Shown piece by piece: positions 1 through 16,740 of a stretch of 64,000 nucleotides of DNA. Positions within the stretch are counted from its first letter, which is position 1. The number at the start of each line of letters is the position of its first letter. Under the pieces are notes generated by a model. It was not told the origin of the DNA. It searched no databases and worked only from the letters and a program-made list of their open reading frames with translations. Source of the DNA: Haliotis rufescens (taxonomy: Eukaryota); contig NW_025964001.1 of NCBI RefSeq assembly GCF_023055435.1, positions 45,570,001 through 45,634,000 on the forward strand. Direction: 5' to 3'. The translations under genes and the position numbers were made by a program.

Positions 1-158
1 GGATAGCATCATGCGGACAGTCAGTTGGTTCTTGCCAGGAGTCAGGAATGAATCGTGGTATTTCTCCCTGAGGTATCGGCGCTTCAGGTTCCGGCATTTC
101 ATCATAATGCTTAGTTCCTCTTTTTCTTTCAGGAAGTGCTTGATGGTGCACCGGATTG
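1..158 (-). CDS. Galaxin-like gene, probable downstream exon (AIRCTIKHFLKEKEELSIMMKC...), continues past window edge
   Basis: Acceptor ctctttcag at 159-167 (minus strand). Phase 1 matches the donor G|gtaagg at 1107/1106, and the frame is open to position 1. Confidence 0.65.
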
Positions 159-3100
159 CTGAAAGAGATTAATTTCATGGGAATCAGTTCTACAGGTATA
201 TTGTTCTTCACATGAGTTCTATTTGGCCGTAGGGCATTATCGCAGTATGGCAGTGTTTGCTGGCCACTGGTTCCCCATGTGGTTCAGAGGGGTTCTACTG
301 TCTATACCTTCATCCTCTGCATCTCATCTTCCCTAGGCAAGAGAGTTAACTGTCTTTAAAGTCCAGTTTCCACACTTGGTGAACTAGGCTGGAATTCCTG
401 GGCTTGATCGAAGTGCCACCAGTGGCTATTAAGAGTTATGTCCCTTCCATGCCTCTCCTATGGACCAATCAGATTCCACCTCTCGTATCACTTACCTTTG
501 CTTCAAACAAAATGGCGGCACCCAGCCAAGATGATCTGATCGACAATCAAGATCTCTATTGTGATAAAACAAGTCTTACAAAGTGCATCAAATCATGTTA
601 GCACCTTGATTAAAAACATGAAATGATTTAGAAACTATCTGTTGACGAGTCAGTGGTGCACATGCTCTGCAAATCCTGCAATCGACTGAAATATGCATGA
701 CAGTTTACGAACCGGATTTCGATTTCATTCAGCGATTTTGATTGGACTATGCATCGACTCGTTAGTCCAGCCAAATTGTAACTCCATAATACCAGCCTAG
801 TTCAGCAAGGGTTGAAACTGGACTTTTATAGTCAGTTAACTCACTTGCCTCGGGAAGATGCAGCATCTGTGCTACATGCCTGTTGTCAACTGACGTAAAG
901 TAGCCTACAGTCACTCAAATATGGAATCTTACTGGTGGGCATTATGAAATATCTAATTTGACCTGTTCTGGTCAATGGACCACCCCTGGACCACCCATAA
1001 CGCACACTGGACAACCATATACCTCTGAGGGTATCAAATGCTAAGTATTGAGCAGGTATATATTTCAGGCAGTTCTAGTATTATTGGTATTAGCAAATTC
1101 CCTTACCAAATGTTTGGAAGCACTCTTTCACCTCAATCCCATTCAGATTTTTCCATGTCTTCCATCTACATAAATTTTCCATTGGATGTATATCCTTTTT
1201 CCACTCAACGATTCCATTGGATTTGCATCGTCCATCTTTGCGAAAATACACCATTGTGTTTTTACAACATCGCTGTCTTCTGCGGCCTCGTCGGGAAACA
1301 ACTGCATATCCCCCACAGCAGGATTTCTTCTTGGGGTTGTAAAGCTCCTTACCACAGCAATAGCTGACCATGCTGAAGTAGGGGGAGTTTCCACAGCAAT
1401 CGTCTCCATGCTCTTCCATCAAGAACTGCTTATTGCCACAACACACAGTGACATCAGCATTGTAGTAGGAGCCTCCACACTTCTCATGACAGGGGTTTTG
1501 GTGTGAATGTTTAGGGTAAGACCTAGCCCCACAGCATCTGCAGAAGATGAAGCATCCTAATTATGTATCAGAGCCTGACAGTGCTGTTTAGCAGGTGATG
1601 TGGGATGATGAGTATCAAATCACTATACACACTTGGCTTTCATATGGTGGGGCTGGGTTAAACTTATTTCCAACTCATTCACTCAGTCAGGTAGGGGCTG
1701 TGCTTGAAAGTTATCTTTCCTTAAATACTTTAAGCTTCCGAAAATAAGTCTCTTGTTCCTTGTGTCTCTTTTTTGAAATTTTGAACATGACAAGGGCAGG
1801 TAACTCTAACCATACTACACTGACATAAGGTATATTTTCAAGGAAGGTTGTACAACCACACTGGTGTAAGACAATAATGAATGTATGGTGTTCCTGGTCA
1901 TGTCTCCAAACACACACCATCAGCTGCAGCATCTGTTCACCCTTTCACGGCCACCTCCGCAGTCTAGTGGTACAGAGGCCGCCAAAAGTGCGAAAGGTCC
2001 GTTCATTCCACGGCATATCAAAAGACGTTAAAAGATGGTACTTATTACCCTGTCTGGCGCTAGGCATTTAGGGGCTGAAACAAGGACTTGTTGGCTCGGA
2101 ATCAGTATACTGTGTCTGAATGGGGTATTCATGTTAAACTGCAGCATGGTATCTCAGTAGGCTAGCACTATAAAATAGGCATCAGTCCGGTCTAGTATAC
2201 ACACACACATGCATGCACATCGCTATATAAGTGCAATAATCTTGGATGCAATGTTAAATCCCAGGTAAATCTCACTTCACCTCACCTCAACCTTTCACTT
2301 TTAACTGGGCCATGATTACCATCCCTGCTGTTTAGTATAATCTACTCACTCTGCATCATTGGCTGACTCATTGTGGACGTGACCCTGGCAGCACATCTGG
2401 GTGGTCTCACTGTAGACTGTCTGCTTCAGATCCCAGCGCCGGCAGCAGCCGAGAGTGTCTCCGGGAGGAAAGTAGTGGACTTGACCGTTGCAGCACACAG
2501 CTTTATTGTCACTGTATGGGACATGGCCACAGTACCGGTCATCAAGTTTCATGATTGTCTGGACTTCCCCTTCAACGCACTCCTACATAAACAATCATGT
2601 TGCAACGTACTGGTACTTCAACCTGGAGTGTATCTCACAATAACTAGGTTTCTTTGGCTCATATCTCACAATAACTAGGTTTCTTTGGCTCATATCTCAC
2701 AATAACTAGGTTTCTTTGGCTCATATCTCACAATAACTAGGTTTCTTTGGCTCATATCTCACAATAACTAGGTTTCTTTGGCTCATATCTCACAATAACT
2801 AGGTTTCTTTGGCTCATATCTCACAATAACTAGGTTTCTTTGGATCATATCTCACAATAACTAGGTTTCTTTGGATCATATCTCACAATAACTAGGTTTC
2901 TTTGGATCATATCTCACAATAACTAGGTTTCTTTGGCTCATATCTCACAATAACTAGGTTTCTTTGGCTCATATCTCACAATAACTAGGTTTCTTTGGCT
3001 CATATCTCACAATAACTAGGTTTCTTTGGATCATATCTCACAATAACTAGGTTTCTTTGGCTCATATCTCACAATAACTAGGTTTCTTTGGCTCATATCT

Positions 3101-6100
3101 CACAATAACTAGGTTTCTTTGGATCATATCTCACAATAACTAGGTTTCTTTGGATCATATCTCACAATAACTAGGTTTCTTTGGCTCATATCTCACAATA
3201 ACTAGGTTTCTTTGGCTCATATCTCACAATAACTAGGTTTCTTTGGATCATATCTCACAATAACTAGGTTTCTTTGGATCATATCTCACAATAACTAGGT
3301 TTCTTTGGATCATATCTCACAATAACTAGGTTTCTTTGGCTCATATCTCACAATAACTAGGTTTCTTTGGCTCATATCTCACAATAACTAGGTTTCTTTG
3401 GCTCATATCTCACAATAACTAGGTTTCTTTGGCTCATATCTCACAATAACTAGGTTTCTTTGGCTCATATCTCACAATAACTAGGTTTCTTTGGATCATA
3501 TCTCACAATAACTAGGTTTCTTTGGATCATATCTCACAATAACTAGGTTTCTTTGGATCATATCTCACAATAACTAGGTTTCTTTGGCTCATATCTCACA
3601 ATAACTAGGTTTCTTTGGCTCATATCTCACAATAACTAGGTTTCTTTGGATCATATCTCACAATAACTAGGTTTCTTTGGCTCATATCTCACAATAACTA
3701 GGTTTCTTTGGCTCATAGCTCACAATAACTAGGTTTCTTTGGATCATATCTCACAATAACTAGGTTTCTTTGGCTCATATCTCACAATAACTAGGTTTCT
3801 TTGGCTCATATCTCACAATAACTAGGTTTCTTTGGCTCATATCTCACAATAACTAGGTTTCTTTGGATCATATCTCACAATAACTAGGTTTCTTTGGATC
3901 ATATCTCACAATAACTAGGTTTCTTTGGCTCATATCTCACAATAACTAGGTTTCTTTGGCTCATATCTCACAATAACTAGGTTTCTTTGGCTCATATCTC
4001 ACAATAACTAGGTTTCTTTGGATCATATCTCACAATAACTAGGTTTCTTTGGATCATATCTCACAATAACTAGGTTTCTTTGGCTCATATCTCACAATAA
4101 CTAGGTTTCTTTGGATCATATCTCACAATAACTAGGTTTCTTTGGCTCATATCTCACAATAACTAGGTTTCTTTGGCTCATATCTCACAATAACTAGGTT
4201 TCTTTGGCTCATATCTCACAATAACTAGGTTTCTTTGGCTCATATCTCACAATAACTAGGTTTCTTTGGCTCATATCTCACAATAACTAGGTTTCTTTGG
4301 CTCATATCTCCCAATAACTAGGTTTCTTTGGATCATATCTCACAATAACTAGGTTTCTTTGGCTCATATCTCACAATAACTAGGTTTCTTTGGATCATAT
4401 CTCACAATAACTAGGTTTCTTTGGATCATATCTCCCAATAACTAGGTTTCTTTGGCTCATATCTTCACAATAACTAAGTTTCTTTGAATCATATCTTCAC
4501 AATAACTAGGTTTAGCCCAGACAATTTTTCTTGGTCTGATCAAATAATAAACATAATTCCACCAAACGATACAAACCTTTTCCGAGCTGTTGTATGTGGC
4601 AAACTGTCTTGAGTAATAGCTTAGACAGCAAGCGTCATGACCTTCCTTGGTCTCCACCTGTGTGTTTTGGCAGCACATCTTGCTTGGCGCCAGCCTCGCT
4701 CCCCCACAACATGTACTGCCTTCCTTCAGTGCCTTCAGTACCCTCGATGGGGAACCTACAATGAACAGGTAATCAAACATCTCAACCGCATCACAACTGC
4801 CAACAACTGCATGGCATTATTAGTGAAAAAAGTTTTATTTTTTTTAAGATACAAATAATTGTATATTTCACCTAAACAGATAATTATTTTGAACTCTGGA
4901 TACAGCTCTCAAAATTACTTGAAATCACAGTTGTCAGCACAATTGAAGAACCTAGTTGACCTAGACATTCGCACATGCCGGGTGCTGTAAGTTGCAGAAA
5001 CACCTGGTACCATTGTAGACAATGATTCCAAAGTATACTAGCCACATAAAGAAACTGTGCACGGAGAAAATATATTCTGGAATGAAATACAACACAGCAA
5101 GAACAAAATGATGCAGACGCTGTAGCAGCTGAATGATCGGACCATAAGAAAATGTCAACGGGACCTGAACAACATCTGTTACGATGACGTCAGAAGATCA
5201 AAATGGAGTAGGGGGTCAAACGACAAAGTCACAAAGTCAATAACGGGTATGACCACCCTGTGCTTGAATCACAGCAGTGCATCGGTGATGCATGGAGTCC
5301 ACCAAATGGGCATGGAAGGCCTGGGGAATGGCCTGCCATATCCTCCTCAAATCCTGTGCCAAGTCACGGACGTTATCTGGAGGATGTGGAAGACGACGCA
5401 GACGGCGCTCCATTTCATCCCACACATGCTCTATTGGGGAGAGATCTGGAGAAATTGCAGGCCATGGCAGTAACATGACATTGTTATGGTGAAGGAAATC
5501 CATTGCGACCCTAGCCGTGTGAGGACAAGCGTTGTCCTGTTGAAATGTCAATCCCGGGCCATTACGTTGCAGGAAAGGAATGACCACAGGCCTCAGATTC
5601 TGATCTCTGTAGCCAACACCGGTGAGATTGCCCTGAACAACCACCGAAGGGGTTCGGTGCCGTGCTGTTATCCCACCCCAAATCATCACAGAGCCACCTC
5701 CAAAACGATTCCTCTCCACAATACAGTTGTGTGCATAACGTTCTCCCAAACGCCGGTAGACACGTTGGCGCCAGTCACTGTGGGAAATGTTGAACCTCGA
5801 TTCATCTGTAAAGACAACATTTCTCCACCATATTCGAGGTTGGCGAACATGATTTCGACACCATCTTAGATGGTTGACTCGATGACGGTGTGTCAGGATG
5901 GGAGGTATGGCAGGGCGTCGTGGTCGAATCCCGTACTGACGTAGGCGATTCCTGACAGTGTTGAGATGGATACGGCGCAGTCCAGGAATTGTCTGGGACG
6001 TCGTTACTGCCGTTTGGAACCTGTGTCGGAGATGTGTCACTCGAATCCATCTGTCCTGTCTTGGCGTCGTTACTCGGGGACGTCCTGAACGTGGGTGGTC

Positions 6101-9100
6101 GGCAACGTCATTTGTGTTCTGATAACGCCTCACCAATGCTGATATCGTGTTATGGTGGCATTGGAAATGTGTTGCCACCTGTTGTTGCCTCATTCCCGCT
6201 CGGATCATTCCAATGGCTTCATGACGTTGTGCAGCTGTCAATCTTGGCATGATTTGCTTGTGATATGCTTGTGTCTGCGCCTGAGAAGTTTTGAATTTTT
6301 GAATGACCAGAGATCATGCTTTCCAAAGTGACAGCGAATTTTGAGTTGCACATGCTGTGTACAGCTGCACAGGATGCACGTGCAGTAACACATTGCACGT
6401 CCATAGGCCCCCATCAATGACGTCATATCGCATGGCACGTGCATGAGCTTTTGAATGTCTCCAATAATTGCTGTGTTCAAACCTATATTTCATATATGGA
6501 CGGTGTGCCCTTATATCTATATTTTCTCCGTGCACAGTTTCTTTATGTGACTAGTATACATACAGATCGGACCCTCCAGGTTAGTTTGCACTCTCTTCAC
6601 ATGACAGAGACACCAGTTTGATTACACCTGATGCTTTGATATTGTGAACAGCATGACAGCATGTCAGGAAACACATCTTTAATCTCTCAGAAACCATACA
6701 GTAACGATGACAGTGTATAAGGCCACATACCATCACAGCAGAAGTGAGTGTCCTTCTTGTAGGGGTGTCCAGCACAGCATCCCTGGCTGTGCCCATCTAT
6801 CCTGTGTGTCCCACAGCATGTGTCATGGCTGCTAGATCTGGTCCAGGTGCTGCCAGCACAGCATAGCTCTGCCGTGGTGTTATAATACCCTGAAAACAAC
6901 CCAACCAGTATTAGACAGCTCACACAGTCCAGGCTGATGTAAGTAGAAACAGGAAAGTCTATCCTGGTGGGAAGTACAGTTGATCAATCAACCTACCTGT
7001 CTCACTACCCACACAGCACTGCAAGTGGTCATCAGCAGGAATGACAACCTCGGCCCCAGGATACTGGGAACAGCAGACTTGTCTCTGGTTATTGTACCCA
7101 ACTGTGCCACAACATTCCACCGTAGGGTTTCTTTGGGACATGTCTTCAGGGTCCAGGTACGGTTGATCATAGATTTTGTCTGAAATCAAGATTCAGGTAA
7201 TTAAGTGCCTGTGTTTATGTAACCTGTTCATAAGCAGAAAAAACTTATTCATTTGCAAATCTTGTTCTGTGCCTTTAAGAACATTTTATATTCAGATTGT
7301 GGGAGAAATTTGGTTTTGTATCCAGCTGTGTTGGCAAAATCTCGAAGGAATCCTAAATATAATGAAATATATCTACTCTTATTGAGGGAGATCATAGGTC
7401 TTGTCTACACAACTTAGCCAGACTATGATACATAGACGCAAGCAGCTTGTCTGAAAACTAACTGCAAGGCTAGAAGTGCTTCTGATTATACTTTTGGACA
7501 TATACAGTCACGGTAACTCTCATATAATATCTGAACTAGATATAAAGTCCATTACATTTCTGGGTTAGCAGTCTGCAGCCATAGAAGTACATCTAACGTA
7601 TATGTGTGAGTGAGTGAGTAAGTTGAACATTACTTCAGTTACTTTAACGACTGTTACCTGAATGAAACCCATGAACCGGTATGACAAATAAGGAATCATA
7701 ATCAGTGCTAATCTGTGATTTGAACCCAAGATCATCTTCACGACTAAGGGATGCAACCTTTCACATGAATGTGTAAATTGTCAGAAGATACTACTATGGG
7801 TGTGGAACGTCTCTCTATTCTCAGTTATATGCCTCACAGACCCTGAACCATATTATTTTCCCTTCCACCCAGCCCTTTCTGTAATGCAAAAACCCTAGAT
7901 GAAGCAAGTCTAGATTTTTCTTACATCTCATCAGAGTTCCTTTTCAGTTTAAATGGAGTTATTTGTTTCTATCAACATTAAGTATTTTCAGAGACTAGGC
8001 GTTGGTCTACTGTGATAGTGCGATGTTACATTTCCTCACTCACCATCACAGCAGGACTTCTCACGGCGTGAGATGATCTTGCCATCACAGATCTCGTCCA
8101 GTCTGTTGACTGCTATCGGATTGCGTGTGTTGCCGGAGATGTTCCAGCGGCAGTTCTGATTGGACAGGTCGACAACAAGGTGACCACAGCACGTGTAGTT
8201 CGGGCCGCGAACGTGTTTGCTGACCAGTGCAGGGTTATCTTCATTTTGACAACACATCTGCGACGTTAGGTTGATGTACTGCTTGCCGCAACAACCCATA
8301 TCTGGAACAGCGTTGGAACTCAAATACGATTTTCTTTCAAAATGCTGTTTGGATAATAACAATAGGGCAATAGTTCCCGAGGCAAGTCCAGTAGAAACAT
8401 TTATCCACCAAAACTAGTAATAGCCGATTTTGTCTCTTATAACATGAAGGTTTTTTAACAGCCAACGTGCAGAGTTTCGTCCCTTGCGCACGCAAGAAAC
8501 CAATGATTGGGGGTTCGAATCCCGGTTCGCCCCGATTATTTTTCTAGGTTTGTCAGCACCATACCCGTGCTCGTGGGTTTCACAGAAGTGGTAAACGTCT
8601 CAGACCTGCATCACTTCGGGCATTCCTCCCGCATAAAGCTGACACGCTGCGATATAACTGGAATACTGTTAAAGGCGGCGTTTAACCCAACTCACTCACT
8701 CACTCTTTTCCTCAGTCACTTAAATCGCCTGTGACGCCATATTCGGTGGATGACGTCGTCTTGCATTATTTGCAGTCATATGACGTCAAGTTCCTATGGA
8801 CTTCTTCACATACAATGGAACAATTTGAACGAAGCAAAATTGTTGGGCCGTGCCTATTTTTGGAATATTTCATAAATCTAGTGAAGACAATAGTATGTCA
8901 GTCGTTCTGGGAACCTTTAAGTTTCTTTGGGATATATATTTGAAAAGAAATCTGGATTTTTGTGATACTTGTCGTCATTTTGGGGATTTGACTATTCTCT
9001 GATGTTGGTGAGAGTTTAAATTATGTTTTAATACAATTTCACGTTAAAGAAGTCTCTATAACTCACCTGGGTGTCTAGGATGGCTGACACCCCCGCAGCA

Positions 9101-9283
9101 GACTGTCCTCTCCATGGGGATTTTCGTGTTACCGCAGCATCCATACTCCACCCCATTCTCATCGTACCTTTCGTACATCTTGTCTTCACAACACAGCCCA
9201 TGGTTTTCGTAGTAGACTCTACCTGTCTCTACAACACAAACCGCCACCATCAGCACCACCATACAACCCCATCGTGACCACAT
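1..9283 (-). CDS. Secreted galaxin-like di-cysteine repeat protein (multi-exon, 3' incomplete). Exons 9283-9067, 8301-8044, 7179-6997, 6889-6731, 4755-4577, 2582-2350, 1537-1107, 158-<1
   Basis: All junctions are GT..AG and phase-compatible (1,1,1,1,0,2,1), giving an open frame of over 600 aa. It starts with signal-like MWSRWGCMVVLMVAVCVVETG and has 26 CC motifs in galaxin/usherin-type spacing (e.g. YNTTAELCCAG, YSETTQMCCQG, YNPKKKSCCGG). Confidence 0.85.
350..835. mobile_element. Non-autonomous DNA transposon (MITE) with ~45-bp TIRs, flanked by TTAA
   Basis: ctgtctttaaagtccagtttccacacttggtgaactaggctgg is inverted at the right end as ccagcctagttcagcaagggttgaaactggacttttatagtcag. TTAA lies at 346-349 and 836-839. 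Confidence 0.65.
1107..1537 (-). CDS. Galaxin-like exon (ECCGARSY...KECFQTF)
   Basis: Acceptor at 1538-1540, phase 2. Six CC motifs. Donor gtaagg at 1106-1101; if unspliced, a stop follows at 1090. Confidence 0.85.
1949..2290 (+). mobile_element. tRNA-derived SINE, family C ((CACCT)n tail)
   Basis: tRNA-like head, body shared with 12252-12503 and 46121-46372, 8-bp TSD cctttcac. Confidence 0.75.
2350..2582 (-). CDS. Galaxin-like exon (ECVEGEV...SANDA)
   Basis: tag acceptor at 2583-2585, gtgagt donor at 2349-2344, phase 0 to 2, three CC motifs. Confidence 0.85.
2631..4513. repeat. 31-bp minisatellite (tatctcacaataactaggtttctttgg[c/a]tca), about 60 copies, filling a galaxin intron
   Basis: 31-bp periodicity read directly; two alternating variants. 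Confidence 0.97.
4577..4755 (-). CDS. Galaxin-like exon (GSPSRVL...NSSEK)
   Basis: tag acceptor at 4756-4758, donor gtttgt at 4576-4571, phase 1 to 0, three CC motifs. Confidence 0.82.
5036..6556 (-). mobile_element. Full-length Tc1/mariner (DD34E) transposon in a galaxin intron
   Basis: About 39-bp TIRs tactag[c/t]cacataaagaaactgtgcacggagaaaatata with one mismatch, TA on both flanks, internal transposase ORF. Confidence 0.95.
5237..6250 (-). CDS. Tc1-family transposase, 337 aa, uninterrupted ORF
   Basis: Paired-like HTH N-terminus with GRPR; motifs VFTDESRF, FQQDNA and SPDLSPIEHVW; 34 residues between the second D and E. Confidence 0.93.
   Translation of the reverse strand: MPRLTAAQRHEAIGMIRAGMRQQQVATHFQCHHNTISALVRRYQNTNDVADHPRSGRPRVTTPRQDRWIRVTHLRHRFQTAVTTSQTIPGLRRIHLNTVRNRLRQYGIRPRRPAIPPILTHRHRVNHLRWCRNHVRQPRIWWRNVVFTDESRFNISHSDWRQRVYRRLGERYAHNCIVERNRFGGGSVMIWGGITARHRTPSVVVQGNLTGVGYRDQNLRPVVIPFLQRNGPGLTFQQDNACPHTARVAMDFLHHNNVMLLPWPAISPDLSPIEHVWDEMERRLRRLPHPPDNVRDLAQDLRRIWQAIPQAFHAHLVDSMHHRCTAVIQAQGGHTRY
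6731..6889 (-). CDS. Galaxin-like exon (GYYNTTAELCC...HFCCD)
   Basis: ttttcag acceptor, gtatgt donor, 159 nt, phase 1-1, four CC motifs. Confidence 0.87.
6997..7179 (-). CDS. Galaxin-like exon (DKIYDQPY...QCCVGSET)
   Basis: atttcag acceptor, gtaggt donor, 183 nt, phase 1-1. Confidence 0.87.
8044..8301 (-). CDS. Galaxin-like exon (DMGCCGKQY...KSCCD)
   Basis: ttccag acceptor, gtgagt donor, 258 nt, phase 1-1. Confidence 0.87.
8467..8705 (+). mobile_element. SINE family B, 5'-truncated
   Basis: B-box ggttcgaatcc, body shared with 17775 and 31377, (ACTC)n tail. Confidence 0.8.
9067..9283 (-). CDS. Galaxin-like exon with signal peptide (MWSRWGCMVVLMVAVCVVETG...HPRHP)
   Basis: ATG at 9283, hydrophobic leader, three CC motifs, donor gtgagt at 9066-9061. 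Confidence 0.8.
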
Positions 9284-10065
9284 TGTCTTAACTGCTTGCT
9301 TCTTTGATTTGAAGTCATTAAATAGAGGGAAATACAATCTTAGTATCCATACACTATTTCACCTTGAGTACATCTATACGCACAATCGGTGTGGGGATTC
9401 CCAAGTTGTTAAAAAATACTTGCGCAAAATCATGATACTGAATGACGTCGCGAAAGCTAGGTCACGTGAGAATCATATCTGTGTAAATACATCCGCGTAC
9501 ATGCAGACAGCACAGGGGTGTGTTTGTGTGGCAGGTCAGCAGGTCAAGGGGTATGTGTACTTGGGCGGTTGTGGTTCGAATGATTTCGACAATATAATAG
9601 CAGTTAAGATATTCAAATAACAGTGAAGCACTCCCACGTACGAAACTACAGGGAAATACAGATAGGAAAAACACGCCAAACGTACTTAAGAGATAAGATG
9701 AATTGTGTAAACCTGTACAGGTTAGGACGATATGTTTGTGAGATAGTATGCCCACGCTATTTGACGTCAGCTGCATTCAACGCATGTAATCAACACAGGG
9801 ATTCTACAAATTCTACAAGGCAATCTTAGCGTAACGACTGTAGGAAGTCTTGTTGCCTAAGGGAGTTATTGTGACATTATAATCATAGTCCATATCGCTA
9901 CCGCCGTAACAACAATAACCACGTGCGCATCGACAGCGGTGACGGGGTCCGACGTTACACTACGTCAGACAGATGCGGTCCTTTCAAATACATGCGCATT
10001 GTTTCCATGGCGACAGTCAGCGTAGGAATATCTTAGTATTAATCGCAGAGTCCAACTGGATTATT

Positions 10066-13648: not shown

Positions 13649-13771
13649 CTTTGCAGCATTTCTTCCCCTGTGTATAACGCTCCAGCACTCCGCCACAGCA
13701 TGTTTGTTGGCTGCTCTTGTAGGGCTTCCATTTTCCATTTATCAAACACTCATCTACCCCGAAAGCCAGCT
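13649..13771 (-). CDS. Galaxin-like exon (ELAFGVDECLINGKWKPYKSSQQTCCGGVLERYTQGKKCCK)
   Basis: tttcaacag acceptor, gtaatg donor, 123 nt, phase 1-1, two CC motifs; completes the signal peptide begun at 16740. Confidence 0.75.
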
Positions 13772-15138: not shown

Positions 15139-16691
15139 TATAATTATCGCAAAAGCAATTGCTTTTGTGTTCAAAACTTGTAAGTAAAAAAGCAATTACA
15201 ATACATGTGCAGCAACGAGCTAAAAAGATGGGCTATATTTTTATGTGGTTGTACTCCGTCATCAATATTTAGTGATCATTTTTTAAAATAACTGACTACT
15301 GACGCACTACATAATAACAACAGTACAAAATGTACAAGTAATCAAAATCAGAGAAAACACCGCCTTAAAATACCACAAGTATTTTGCTAGGGTCCGTTCG
15401 ACCACAGTCCACTGCATCAACAGCAGGGTGGATTGAAAACAAAGTACCATATCTGTTAATGAAATCTATTTCAAAGATGACGTGCACTTATAACTGTAAC
15501 ATTAATGTATTATCACATCAATATAAGTTATTAATAGAAACACATCACCATGGCGGTATTGGCCAATACGTGATTTTCCAACATCTGCATCATCGACTTA
15601 TGGGTTGTTAAACAACAACTACAACAACTTACTGAGACTTCTACGACTCAGCATTCGTATTTCAATATAATCTTCAAGGCGGATGATGGAGGTAAAGGGG
15701 TTTGAACACCAACACCATCAACATGCACTCTGTGTATAACGCTATGTAGTTTCACAGGTTTAAGCATAAACGTCGTTGTTTAAAAGACACGAAGGGGGCT
15801 ATCCACTCTAGTTGAAGATTCGTAGGTCAGGCGAAATAATGACTAACTAGTTTTTGATACTAAGAAACTGGCGAGAGCTACGCTGAAGCTGTATTGGTGA
15901 CAGATATCGTGATCTAGATGTCCGAGTAACGGTCCCGGTAGAGCTATTGCCATAGAAACTTGTAGAGTGACTTAGTGTGTATAAAAAATGGGCATCGGCA
16001 TGGGTTTGTTTTGGACATGTAATAAAAACAGGTACCACAGACATTGCTGACTACGTCAGTGAACCAATGCTCTGACGTTTGGTGCGATAATTGTCATATT
16101 ATACGTGCGCTTCCGCTAATTGCGGTTCCCATGTACCAGCACATTCCGACTAAGAGAGACACACACTATTTCCGATCGAGGCACTATATATGTTAAGGAA
16201 ACTCAGTCTTTAGCTCGGCATTGAATATTCCATGAATAGTTACCATGAGTATTAATTCTAGGCACGGAATAGTATTCACTATAATTATTGATGCAACGAC
16301 GGATATTGAAGGACGCGGAGTGCTTCTGTGTTAAATAGCTGTACACATGTACCTTAATATTGTACAACGCAATACAAACTGCACATTTATCTTTATGAAG
16401 TAGTATATAAAGTATACAAGTGTTGTCGATTAAACGTTTTAACATTCGTCCTTTATTGAATTACCCGAATTCGTAAATGATTAAAATGATCTCTCTTTAA
16501 TGTAGGATATGTAGCAACAAAACCACCAGGTTGTGCATCAGAGACACTGACTGACAAGAGATGGACCTAAACATGAAATTGTCATTAGAATATATCGCAA
16601 CAACAAATTGTGTGTTCCGAATAGCCAGCATAAAACATATATTCTCAAAACAGTCCTAAATTGAATAAAGTGAAAATAAAATGTTACTTAC

Positions 16692-16740
16692 CAGAATTCA
16701 GTATGAAGATAGCAAAAGCTAAAATATTGTTCGCATTCAT
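16692..16740 (-). CDS. Signal-peptide first exon (MNANNILAFAIFILNS) of a galaxin-like transcript
   Basis: ATG at 16740, hydrophobic core, consensus donor G|gtaagt, phase 1 joining 13771 in frame. Confidence 0.65.

What the first reader, a model, noticed from the sequence alone, without database searches (positions are those of the whole stretch)
1..1250. Galaxin-repeat protein appears to end in an NTR (netrin/TIMP/sFRP C-terminal)-like module
Seen: after the last CC repeat, a consensus donor at 1106 splices in phase to an open exon at 158, giving ...NLCRWKTW...KECFQTF-AIRCTIKHFLKEKEELSIMMKC.... Established: NTR domains of sFRP/netrin begin with a C-x3-F-A-(I/L)-R-x2-I-K-type strand, and galaxins are secreted CC-repeat proteins known from coral skeletal matrix and squid light-organ symbiosis. 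Inference: this is a galaxin-plus-NTR architecture, a possible molluscan matrix or host-microbe protein with a protease-, Wnt- or heparin-binding tail. The domain call rests on a short motif only.
Basis: partly seen in the sequence, partly recalled or inferred. Interest (0 to 1): 0.7.

Follow-up and report, generated by a model that had tools for sequence, protein, structure and literature searches.

The report
Galaxin protein capped by NTR domain

Summary
Confirmed, and wider than proposed. The 1107/158 junction (948-nt GT..AG intron) is joined in transcript contigs of 4 of 4 runs. The gene has 10 exons on the minus strand and encodes 726 aa: signal-like N-terminus, 28 di-cysteine motifs (Pfam PF24748) and a basic 160-aa tail. 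Pfam does not call NTR on the abalone tail. However, an AlphaFold model (pLDDT 83) has only NTR/TIMP-clan proteins in Foldseek's top 12 and VIA-align's top 11, and ESM features agree. The design is not mollusc-specific: 39 of 152 galaxin-repeat relatives carry such a tail, from gastropods, bivalves, an annelid, a brachiopod, echinoderms and fishes; a Nematostella protein probably does too. Gastropods have lost one of the three NTR cysteine pairs. TIMP-type protease inhibition is unlikely; a sulfated-glycan tether is my best guess, untested. A neighbouring paralog ends in a GPI-like tail instead. I found no paper describing the combination; this scan saw it before in a sea urchin (e1-7882001).

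The parts
16692..16740 (-). Coding exon 1: ATG at 16740, hydrophobic signal-peptide-like start (16 codons + 1 base)
   Evidence: tblastn of P0001 residues 1-16, 100%; GT donor at 16691. Junction to exon 2 not shown by a listed joint; inferred. Signal peptide judged by eye, no predictor run.
13649..13771 (-). Exon 2: end of signal peptide and first repeat
   Evidence: AG/GT sites and open frame; tblastn to P0001; contig depth in the bin and 193/233 unplaced upstream letters in X1/X4 contigs; joint itself not listed
9067..9228 (-). Exon 3, galaxin repeats
   Evidence: contig piece 9067-9228 and joint 8301>9067; PF24748
8044..8301 (-). Exon 4, galaxin repeats
   Evidence: joints in 4 of 4 runs; PF24748
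6997..7179 (-). Exon 5, galaxin repeats
   Evidence: joints in 4 of 4 runs; frame
6731..6889 (-). Exon 6, galaxin repeats
   Evidence: joints in 4 of 4 runs; frame
4577..4755 (-). Exon 7, galaxin repeats
   Evidence: joint 4753>6729 in 4 of 4 runs; joined to exon 8 by consecutive record positions in equal-length X1 and X4 contigs
2350..2582 (-). Exon 8, galaxin repeats; 2501-2350 is 97% identical in DNA to an exon of the neighbouring paralog
   Evidence: joint to exon 9 in 4 of 4 runs; PF24748 36 bits; blastn and alignment
1107..1537 (-). Exon 9: last repeats (last CC at 1269-1264), basic linker with one R-X-R-R site, and the first 26 residues of the NTR module (from 1185; conserved Cys at 1170 and 1122)
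159..1106 (-). Intron 9, 948 nt, GT..AG, phase 1, lying inside the NTR module
   Evidence: skipped in 4 of 4 runs
1..158 (-). Exon 10 (window part): beta-barrel strands of the NTR module; continues 245 bases left of the window to the TAG stop at G000:C223:45569757-45569755, then 3' UTR
   Evidence: open frame; contigs cover L007 1-758 in 4 of 4 runs; model and fold searches on the 95% identical P0001 tail

Best explanation
The gene is spliced across 1107/158 and encodes a 726-residue, likely secreted protein in which about 520 residues of galaxin di-cysteine repeats are capped by a strongly basic domain predicted to have the NTR (netrin-C/C345C/TIMP-like OB) fold, and that cap likely anchors the repeat chain to sulfated glycans or other polyanions at an epithelial surface or in matrix. 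Shown: splicing, open frame, repeats, charge split (repeats pI 6.2, net -8; NTR core pI 10.1, net +20). Predicted: fold, signal peptide, disulfide pairing (two of the three usual NTR pairs kept, one abalone-specific extra pair possible). Inferred: the repeats are the working surface and the C-terminal module decides where the protein sits, because the neighbouring paralog carries a similar repeat chain but ends in a GPI-like hydrophobic tail at the same place. The architecture is a family trait across bilaterians, not an abalone novelty.
For: Splicing in 4 of 4 runs. AlphaFold2 of the P0001 tail with 25 rows: pLDDT 83, pTM 0.77. Foldseek: ranks 1-12 are all NTR-clan domains, best PCOLCE1 NTR 1uap E 1.4e-4. 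VIA-align over 48,161 chains: ranks 1-11 NTR/TIMP-like, best C5 C345C Z 8.5, rmsd 3.9, 124 aligned; best non-NTR OB fold Z 6.1, 86 aligned. ESM features on the single sequence: NTR clusters at 0.92, all ten best family hits in one clan. Crinoid and sturgeon tails hit PF01759 at E 2.6e-4 and 2e-3. Gastropod tails link to bivalve/annelid/echinoderm tails (hhalign 84%, E 8e-6; reversed control 0.07%); a profile of 39 galaxin tails scores 3 of 3 ordinary abalone NTR exons above the best decoy (20.4, 18.6, 11.5 vs 10.1 bits). Tails are basic: pI above 9 in 9 of 9 gastropod and 14 of 16 group-B tails. Paralog with hydrophobic tail 60 kb away, head to head; Patella also has both kinds. The closest Foldseek match, PCPE-1 NTR, acts through heparin/heparan sulfate and does not inhibit metzincins (PMC2871463, abstract read).
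Against: Pfam NTR does not hit the abalone or any gastropod tail tested as whole proteins, and no tail reaches the gathering score (best 21.2 vs 21.9). Profile searches of PDB sequences found no NTR protein. TM-scores are modest (0.39-0.47 by query in the top 12) and identity 7-14%; the tool notes Z 7-8 can arise from common arrangements. The folding alignment contained 15 non-gastropod rows with more typical NTR patterns, which may have steered the model. A profile without gastropods scores the Haliotis tails at background (0.9 and -3.4 bits). Fish tails are less basic (pI above 9 in 7 of 16 rows of that group, two of which are not fish). No binding, tissue or expression-site data; a basic charge is common to most NTR domains whatever they bind.
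Confidence: 0.6

Rival explanations
1. The NTR cap is a protein-docking module (as in complement C345C, agrin NtA binding laminin, or sFRP binding Wnt; partners recalled, not tested) and its charge is secondary.
For: The best VIA-align matches are C345C domains of C5, C3 and C4 (Z 7.8-8.5), with meteorin NTR and agrin NtA next; fish tails keep the cysteine pattern but often lose the basic charge.
Against: The tails diverge fast (13-23% identity among gastropods; median end branch 1.3 changes per column), with only cysteines invariant, which suits charge-based binding better than a fixed protein interface. Sizzled (sFRP) ranks only 42nd (Z 4.4).
Confidence: 0.25
2. The protein is an epithelial antimicrobial or microbiota-shaping factor like squid EsGal1, with the cationic tail acting on bacterial surfaces, perhaps released by a furin-type cut.
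For: Squid galaxins are cationic, epithelial and their repeat peptides inhibit bacteria (PMC12773714, passages read). The linker plus tail are very basic and one R-X-R-R site lies at residue 532. An Argonauta 'galaxin-2-like' protein has a weakly related tail (15.7 bits leave-one-out).
Against: The repeats of this protein are net acidic. The R-X-R-R site is not apparent in the other gastropod rows printed and lies just before the last CC, so disulfides may hold the pieces together. This rival is compatible with the best explanation: the tether could place an antimicrobial repeat chain.
Confidence: 0.2
3. It is a shell-matrix framework protein.
For: Coral galaxins are skeletal matrix proteins (PMC2726143, PMC7853314, passages read) and a short mussel galaxin-like protein affects shell formation (PMC10045328, passages read).
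Against: The words galaxin and usherin and three exact motifs of this protein gave 0 hits in the main text and 27 supplements of an in-depth Haliotis laevigata shell proteome (PMC6003135; word control worked); exact motifs may fail across species, so this is weak. The architecture occurs in fishes, a crinoid, a sea cucumber and a sea anemone, so shell building cannot be the family's basic role.
Confidence: 0.1
4. The tail is a TIMP-type metalloproteinase inhibitor.
For: TIMP structures appear among the fold matches (Z 5.3-5.4).
Against: TIMP inhibition needs the N-terminal cysteine (PMC2871463 abstract) at a free N-terminus (recalled). Here the domain is C-terminal and the first NTR cysteine and its partner are absent in 9 of 9 gastropod tails. 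Even PCPE-1 NTR cut to start at that cysteine does not inhibit.
Confidence: 0.03

Closest known systems
Coral galaxin and galaxin-like proteins, squid EsGal1-10, mussel cysrichin (Pfam PF24748)
   Same: Signal-like N-terminus and tandem di-cysteine repeats; PF24748 171 bits, 5 stretches in P0001.
   Different: [quoted passage not shown] This protein is longer (726 aa) and ends in an NTR-fold domain.
C-terminal NTR proteins: PCPE-1/PCOLCE, netrins, sFRPs, complement C3-C5, WFIKKN, ADAMTSL5
   Same: Basic, cysteine-patterned OB-fold module at the C-terminus of a secreted multidomain protein (definition in PMC3516229, section 13 and passages read).
   Different: The N-terminal partner is a galaxin repeat array, which is not among the NTR families listed in that survey of 11 metazoan genomes. 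Identity 7-14%; below Pfam threshold; gastropod tails lack the first and fourth cysteines; abalones have two extra cysteines.
Fish si:ch211-195m9.3 / 'galaxin' proteins and echinoderm, bivalve, annelid uncharacterised galaxin-repeat proteins
   Same: Same order of parts: repeats then NTR-like tail. These are the probable orthologues or family members.
   Different: Uncharacterised; the fish gene name occurs in 0 papers of the library. Fish tails link only weakly to the invertebrate tails by sequence (hhalign 10% and 2%).
Neighbouring paralog P0003 (G000:C223:45646371-45662000, + strand)
   Same: Galaxin repeats, 37% identical over 506 aligned residues, one exon segment 97% identical in DNA.
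   Different: No NTR tail; ends in a hydrophobic GPI-signal-like stretch (by eye and hydropathy).

Membership tests
Galaxin-repeat proteins (PF24748) | Tandem di-cysteine repeats over the Pfam cut-off | tested here: met
   P0001 171 bits vs cut-off 28; two window exons pass alone; 28 CC motifs
Galaxin-repeat proteins (PF24748) | N-terminal signal peptide | tested here: inconclusive
   Hydrophobic 16-20 residue start with a small-residue cleavage pattern, by eye; no predictor available
Galaxin-repeat proteins (PF24748) | Presence in skeletal matrix or symbiotic epithelium | not testable with these tools
   Run tissue labels are coded; one abalone shell proteome gave no hit by word or motif
NTR module (PF01759 / TIMP-like OB fold) | OB-type beta-barrel with helices at both ends | tested here: met
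   Model: helices 2-23, strands 26-125, helices 128-153; Foldseek top 12 and VIA top 11 are NTR-clan. Prediction, not a solved structure
NTR module (PF01759 / TIMP-like OB fold) | Enrichment in basic residues | tested here: met
   Core 143 aa: 36 K/R vs 16 D/E, pI 10.1
NTR module (PF01759 / TIMP-like OB fold) | Cysteine spacing pattern (six cysteines, three pairs; numbering recalled) | tested here: inconclusive
   Four positions kept in 9 of 9 gastropod tails; first and fourth absent in 9 of 9, yet present in 12 and 10 of 16 group-B tails. A paired loss, which suits a lost disulfide
NTR module (PF01759 / TIMP-like OB fold) | Pfam PF01759 gathering score (21.9 bits) | tested here: not met
   No hit for Haliotis tails; best relative 21.2 bits; 3 of 25 aligned tails hit at E up to 1. 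So it is a divergent NTR-fold domain, not a Pfam-recognised one
NTR module (PF01759 / TIMP-like OB fold) | Heparin or protein-partner binding | not testable with these tools
   Needs bench assay
TIMP metalloproteinase inhibitors | NTR domain at the mature N-terminus starting with the zinc-chelating cysteine | tested here: not met
   Domain is C-terminal (residues 567-715 of 726) and lacks that cysteine
sFRP and netrin | Frizzled CRD, or laminin N-terminal plus EGF domains, before the NTR | tested here: not met
   Pfam finds only galaxin repeats in P0001

The most novel reading that the evidence does not exclude
Galaxin-NTR proteins are an overlooked, ancient family of NTR-bearing extracellular proteins, present in the last common ancestor of bilaterians (perhaps of cnidarians and bilaterians) and still in fishes, in which one repeat chain is fitted with interchangeable anchors: a glycan-binding NTR cap or a GPI tail. 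Tail-less coral and squid galaxins would then be trimmed members, and the fish gene si:ch211-195m9.3 would make galaxin function testable in a vertebrate model.
Probability: 0.5. Interest if true: 0.68.

Novelty: new variant of a known kind. Interest (0 to 1): 0.5.

Why it matters
Galaxins are cited as skeleton and symbiosis proteins but have no accepted mechanism. A folded, recognisable C-terminal module gives a first handle: it can be expressed alone, tested on heparin and used as bait. It adds a partner domain to the short list of NTR-bearing families, missed because the tail falls under the Pfam threshold. The wide range argues against a role specific to shell or coral skeleton, and the NTR-versus-GPI paralog pair offers a natural comparison. 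Both parts are known domains and the function is untested, so interest is moderate.

Tried and rejected
Termination at TAA 1090: rejected as the main form. Single-sequence AlphaFold of full-length P0001: pLDDT 34, useless, so the repeat region's fold is untested here. Pfam on the last exon, on P0001/P0002 and their tails: no NTR; a PH_2 hit on P0002 (E 0.0095, under cut-off) is contradicted by the fold. Profile searches of PDB sequences with three tail alignments: nothing relevant. Word-indexed search with the last exon found only two Haliotis proteins, and with the 9-tail profile only six gastropod proteins. The look-up of sequencing runs: no RNA holder on record. PF24748 search of the own genome is swamped by simple-repeat frames and gives no copy number; TIMP family search rang nowhere. 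Single origin of the fusion: not shown. In a tree of 42 tails (P0038 left out as truncated) the 38 bilaterian galaxin tails stand against three ordinary abalone NTR exons plus the Nematostella tail at 95/86, but the outgroup is three partial exons and branches are long; the Nematostella tail did not link to the others by profile. Short basic tails of oyster 'usherin-like' proteins (P0036, P0040) and P0048/P0136/P0093/P0118 did not pass the decoy bar. Furin release of the tail: not conserved by eye. No complex prediction was sent: no candidate partner. Literature: nine searches with galaxin plus NTR domain, netrin, TIMP, C345C, netrin module, OB-fold, Haliotis, zebrafish and the fish gene name; no listed paper described the combination. 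Co-occurrences opened (PMC9100110, PMC7853314) were unrelated table or legend entries; two other galaxin+netrin papers were seen as listings only. The EsGal1 paper PMC4224630 was not held; supplements of PMC12773714 and PMC3516229 were not read and may bear on novelty; InterPro superfamily labels could not be checked.

Full report
Observation. The finding lies on the minus strand. The window is G000:C223:45570001-45634000. I fetched the DNA to its left: the last exon stays open for 245 more bases to a TAG. Laying four public runs from four studies on the region showed the 948-base skip in 4 of 4, with GT..AG ends, and cover of the whole last exon and on into the 3' UTR. The tool only guesses that these runs are RNA, but their contigs are spliced. 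Unspliced contigs over the donor are minor and like those over another intron.

Gene. Upstream joints at 2350/1537, 6731/4755, 6997/6889, 8044/7179 and 9067/8301 are listed in 4 of 4 runs; 4577/2582 follows from consecutive positions in equal-length contigs of two runs. Exons 1 and 2 (16740-16692, 13771-13649) are inferred from a 95% identical annotated Haliotis protein, canonical sites and unplaced upstream letters of the contigs. The product is 726 aa with 70 cysteines, 28 CC motifs, six N-glycosylation sequons, near-neutral repeats (pI 6.2) and a basic tail from residue 567 (core pI 10.1, net +20).

Is the tail NTR? By Pfam, no: the last exon, P0001 and P0002, and their tails give no PF01759 hit, and profile searches of PDB sequences find nothing. 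By other routes, yes. ESM features of P0001 562-723 rank NTR clusters first (0.92). AlphaFold2 on a 25-row tail alignment gave pLDDT 83 and pTM 0.77. Foldseek's first 12 rows are PCOLCE1 NTR, complement C345C and agrin NtA (best E 1.4e-4); VIA-align's first 11 rows are C345C, a hookworm secreted protein that I recall as netrin/TIMP-like, meteorin NTR, PCOLCE1 NTR and NtA (best Z 8.5, rmsd 3.9, 124 aligned), ahead of nucleic-acid OB folds (Z 6.1, 86 aligned). The model is of P0001, 95% identical to the window's last exon, and 15 of its 25 rows were non-gastropod tails, which may have steered it. Independent of the model, a profile of 39 galaxin tails scores 3 of 3 ordinary NTR exons of this genome above the best of the reversed and shuffled decoys.

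Family. A profile search of 1.84 billion representatives gave 275 hits at E up to 0.001, of which 150 were listed. Of 152 proteins in hand, 57 have 90 or more residues after the last repeat and 39 fall into three tail groups by iterative search against decoys; all 39 pass leave-one-out. Group A (9) is gastropod: Haliotis twice, Patella, Lymnaea, Physella, Biomphalaria, Bradybaena, Elysia, Plakobranchus. Group B (16) holds, among the 12 named, six bivalves, Owenia, Lingula, Argonauta and three echinoderms. Group C (14) holds, among the 5 named, only ray-finned fishes, one called si:ch211-195m9.3. A Callorhinchus and a Holothuria-cluster protein also pass the decoys, and a Nematostella galaxin tail is NTR-like by ESM features (0.91) and structure (TM 0.63). 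A links to B by hhalign at 84% (E 8e-6; reversed control 0.07%); C links weakly (10% and 2%) once shared rows are removed. Crinoid and sturgeon tails hit PF01759 just under the cut-off. Six cysteine columns emerge; gastropods keep four in 9 of 9 and lack the first and fourth in 9 of 9, a paired loss. A tree is compatible with one bilaterian origin but does not show it; repeated fusion of NTR domains is documented for netrins and sFRPs (PMC3516229, abstract, passages and section 13 read).

Paralog. P0003 maps head to head about 60 kb away. It shares the repeats (37% identity) but ends in a hydrophobic, GPI-signal-like tail; 7 of 152 proteins end so, including a Patella protein whose accession numbers follow those of the Patella NTR-tailed protein on a contig of the same length, which suggests the pair is old (adjacency in Patella is inferred).

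Mechanism. I commit to a tether: secreted repeat chain, basic NTR cap bound to sulfated glycans or other polyanions. Grounds: conserved basic charge with little other conservation, the position swap with a GPI-like tail, and the behaviour of the nearest Foldseek match, PCPE-1 NTR, which works through heparin and does not inhibit metzincins (PMC2871463, abstract). All of this is inference. Protein docking, an antimicrobial role like squid galaxins (PMC12773714, passages) and a shell role remain open; the last found no support in one abalone shell proteome (main text and 27 supplements searched by word and motif). TIMP-type inhibition fails its structural requirements.

Novelty. Nine literature searches returned no description of galaxin repeats joined to an NTR domain, and the published list of NTR families omits it. 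The library lacks most subscription journals, and automatic superfamily labels could not be checked. An earlier unreviewed note of this scan reports the same design in a sea urchin; it is not independent support, though an urchin protein falls in group B here. Verdict: real, a new pairing of two known domains that defines a broad uncharacterised family; interest 0.5.

Noticed in passing
window 2350-2501 and L010:6936-7092 (G000:C223:45660936-45661092): About 150 bases at the 3' end of exon 8 are 97% identical to an exon of the inverted paralog, although the proteins are 37% identical overall; identity ends at the splice donor. Looks like recent gene conversion between the two genes.
   Followed up: partly
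window 9067-9368: Run X5's main contig covers this stretch unspliced; an in-frame ATG at 9283 gives a second signal-peptide-like start, so an alternative first exon may exist. Seen as the main form in 1 of 4 runs.
   Followed up: partly
G000:C223:45646371-45662000 (+): Paralogous galaxin-repeat gene (P0003) with a GPI-like hydrophobic end, head to head with this gene; Patella has both kinds too.
   Followed up: partly
window 5237-6313 (-): 358-codon frame in intron 6 that reads like a Tc1/mariner transposase (recalled resemblance, not searched); related copies occur in all four runs.
   Followed up: no
window 2640-4500; L003:150-6650: A roughly 30-base minisatellite fills most of intron 7, and a long GGT-rich tandem array lies about 3 kb past the stop codon.
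   Followed up: no
window 150-148 and 96-94 (-): Two cysteines found only in the Haliotis tails sit on neighbouring strands of the predicted hairpin and could form an extra disulfide.
   Followed up: no
P0020 748-875 (Nematostella): Its tail also matches the N-terminal beta-barrel of Vein and neuregulins by predicted structure (TM 0.64-0.67), hinting that those barrels are NTR-like too.
   Followed up: no
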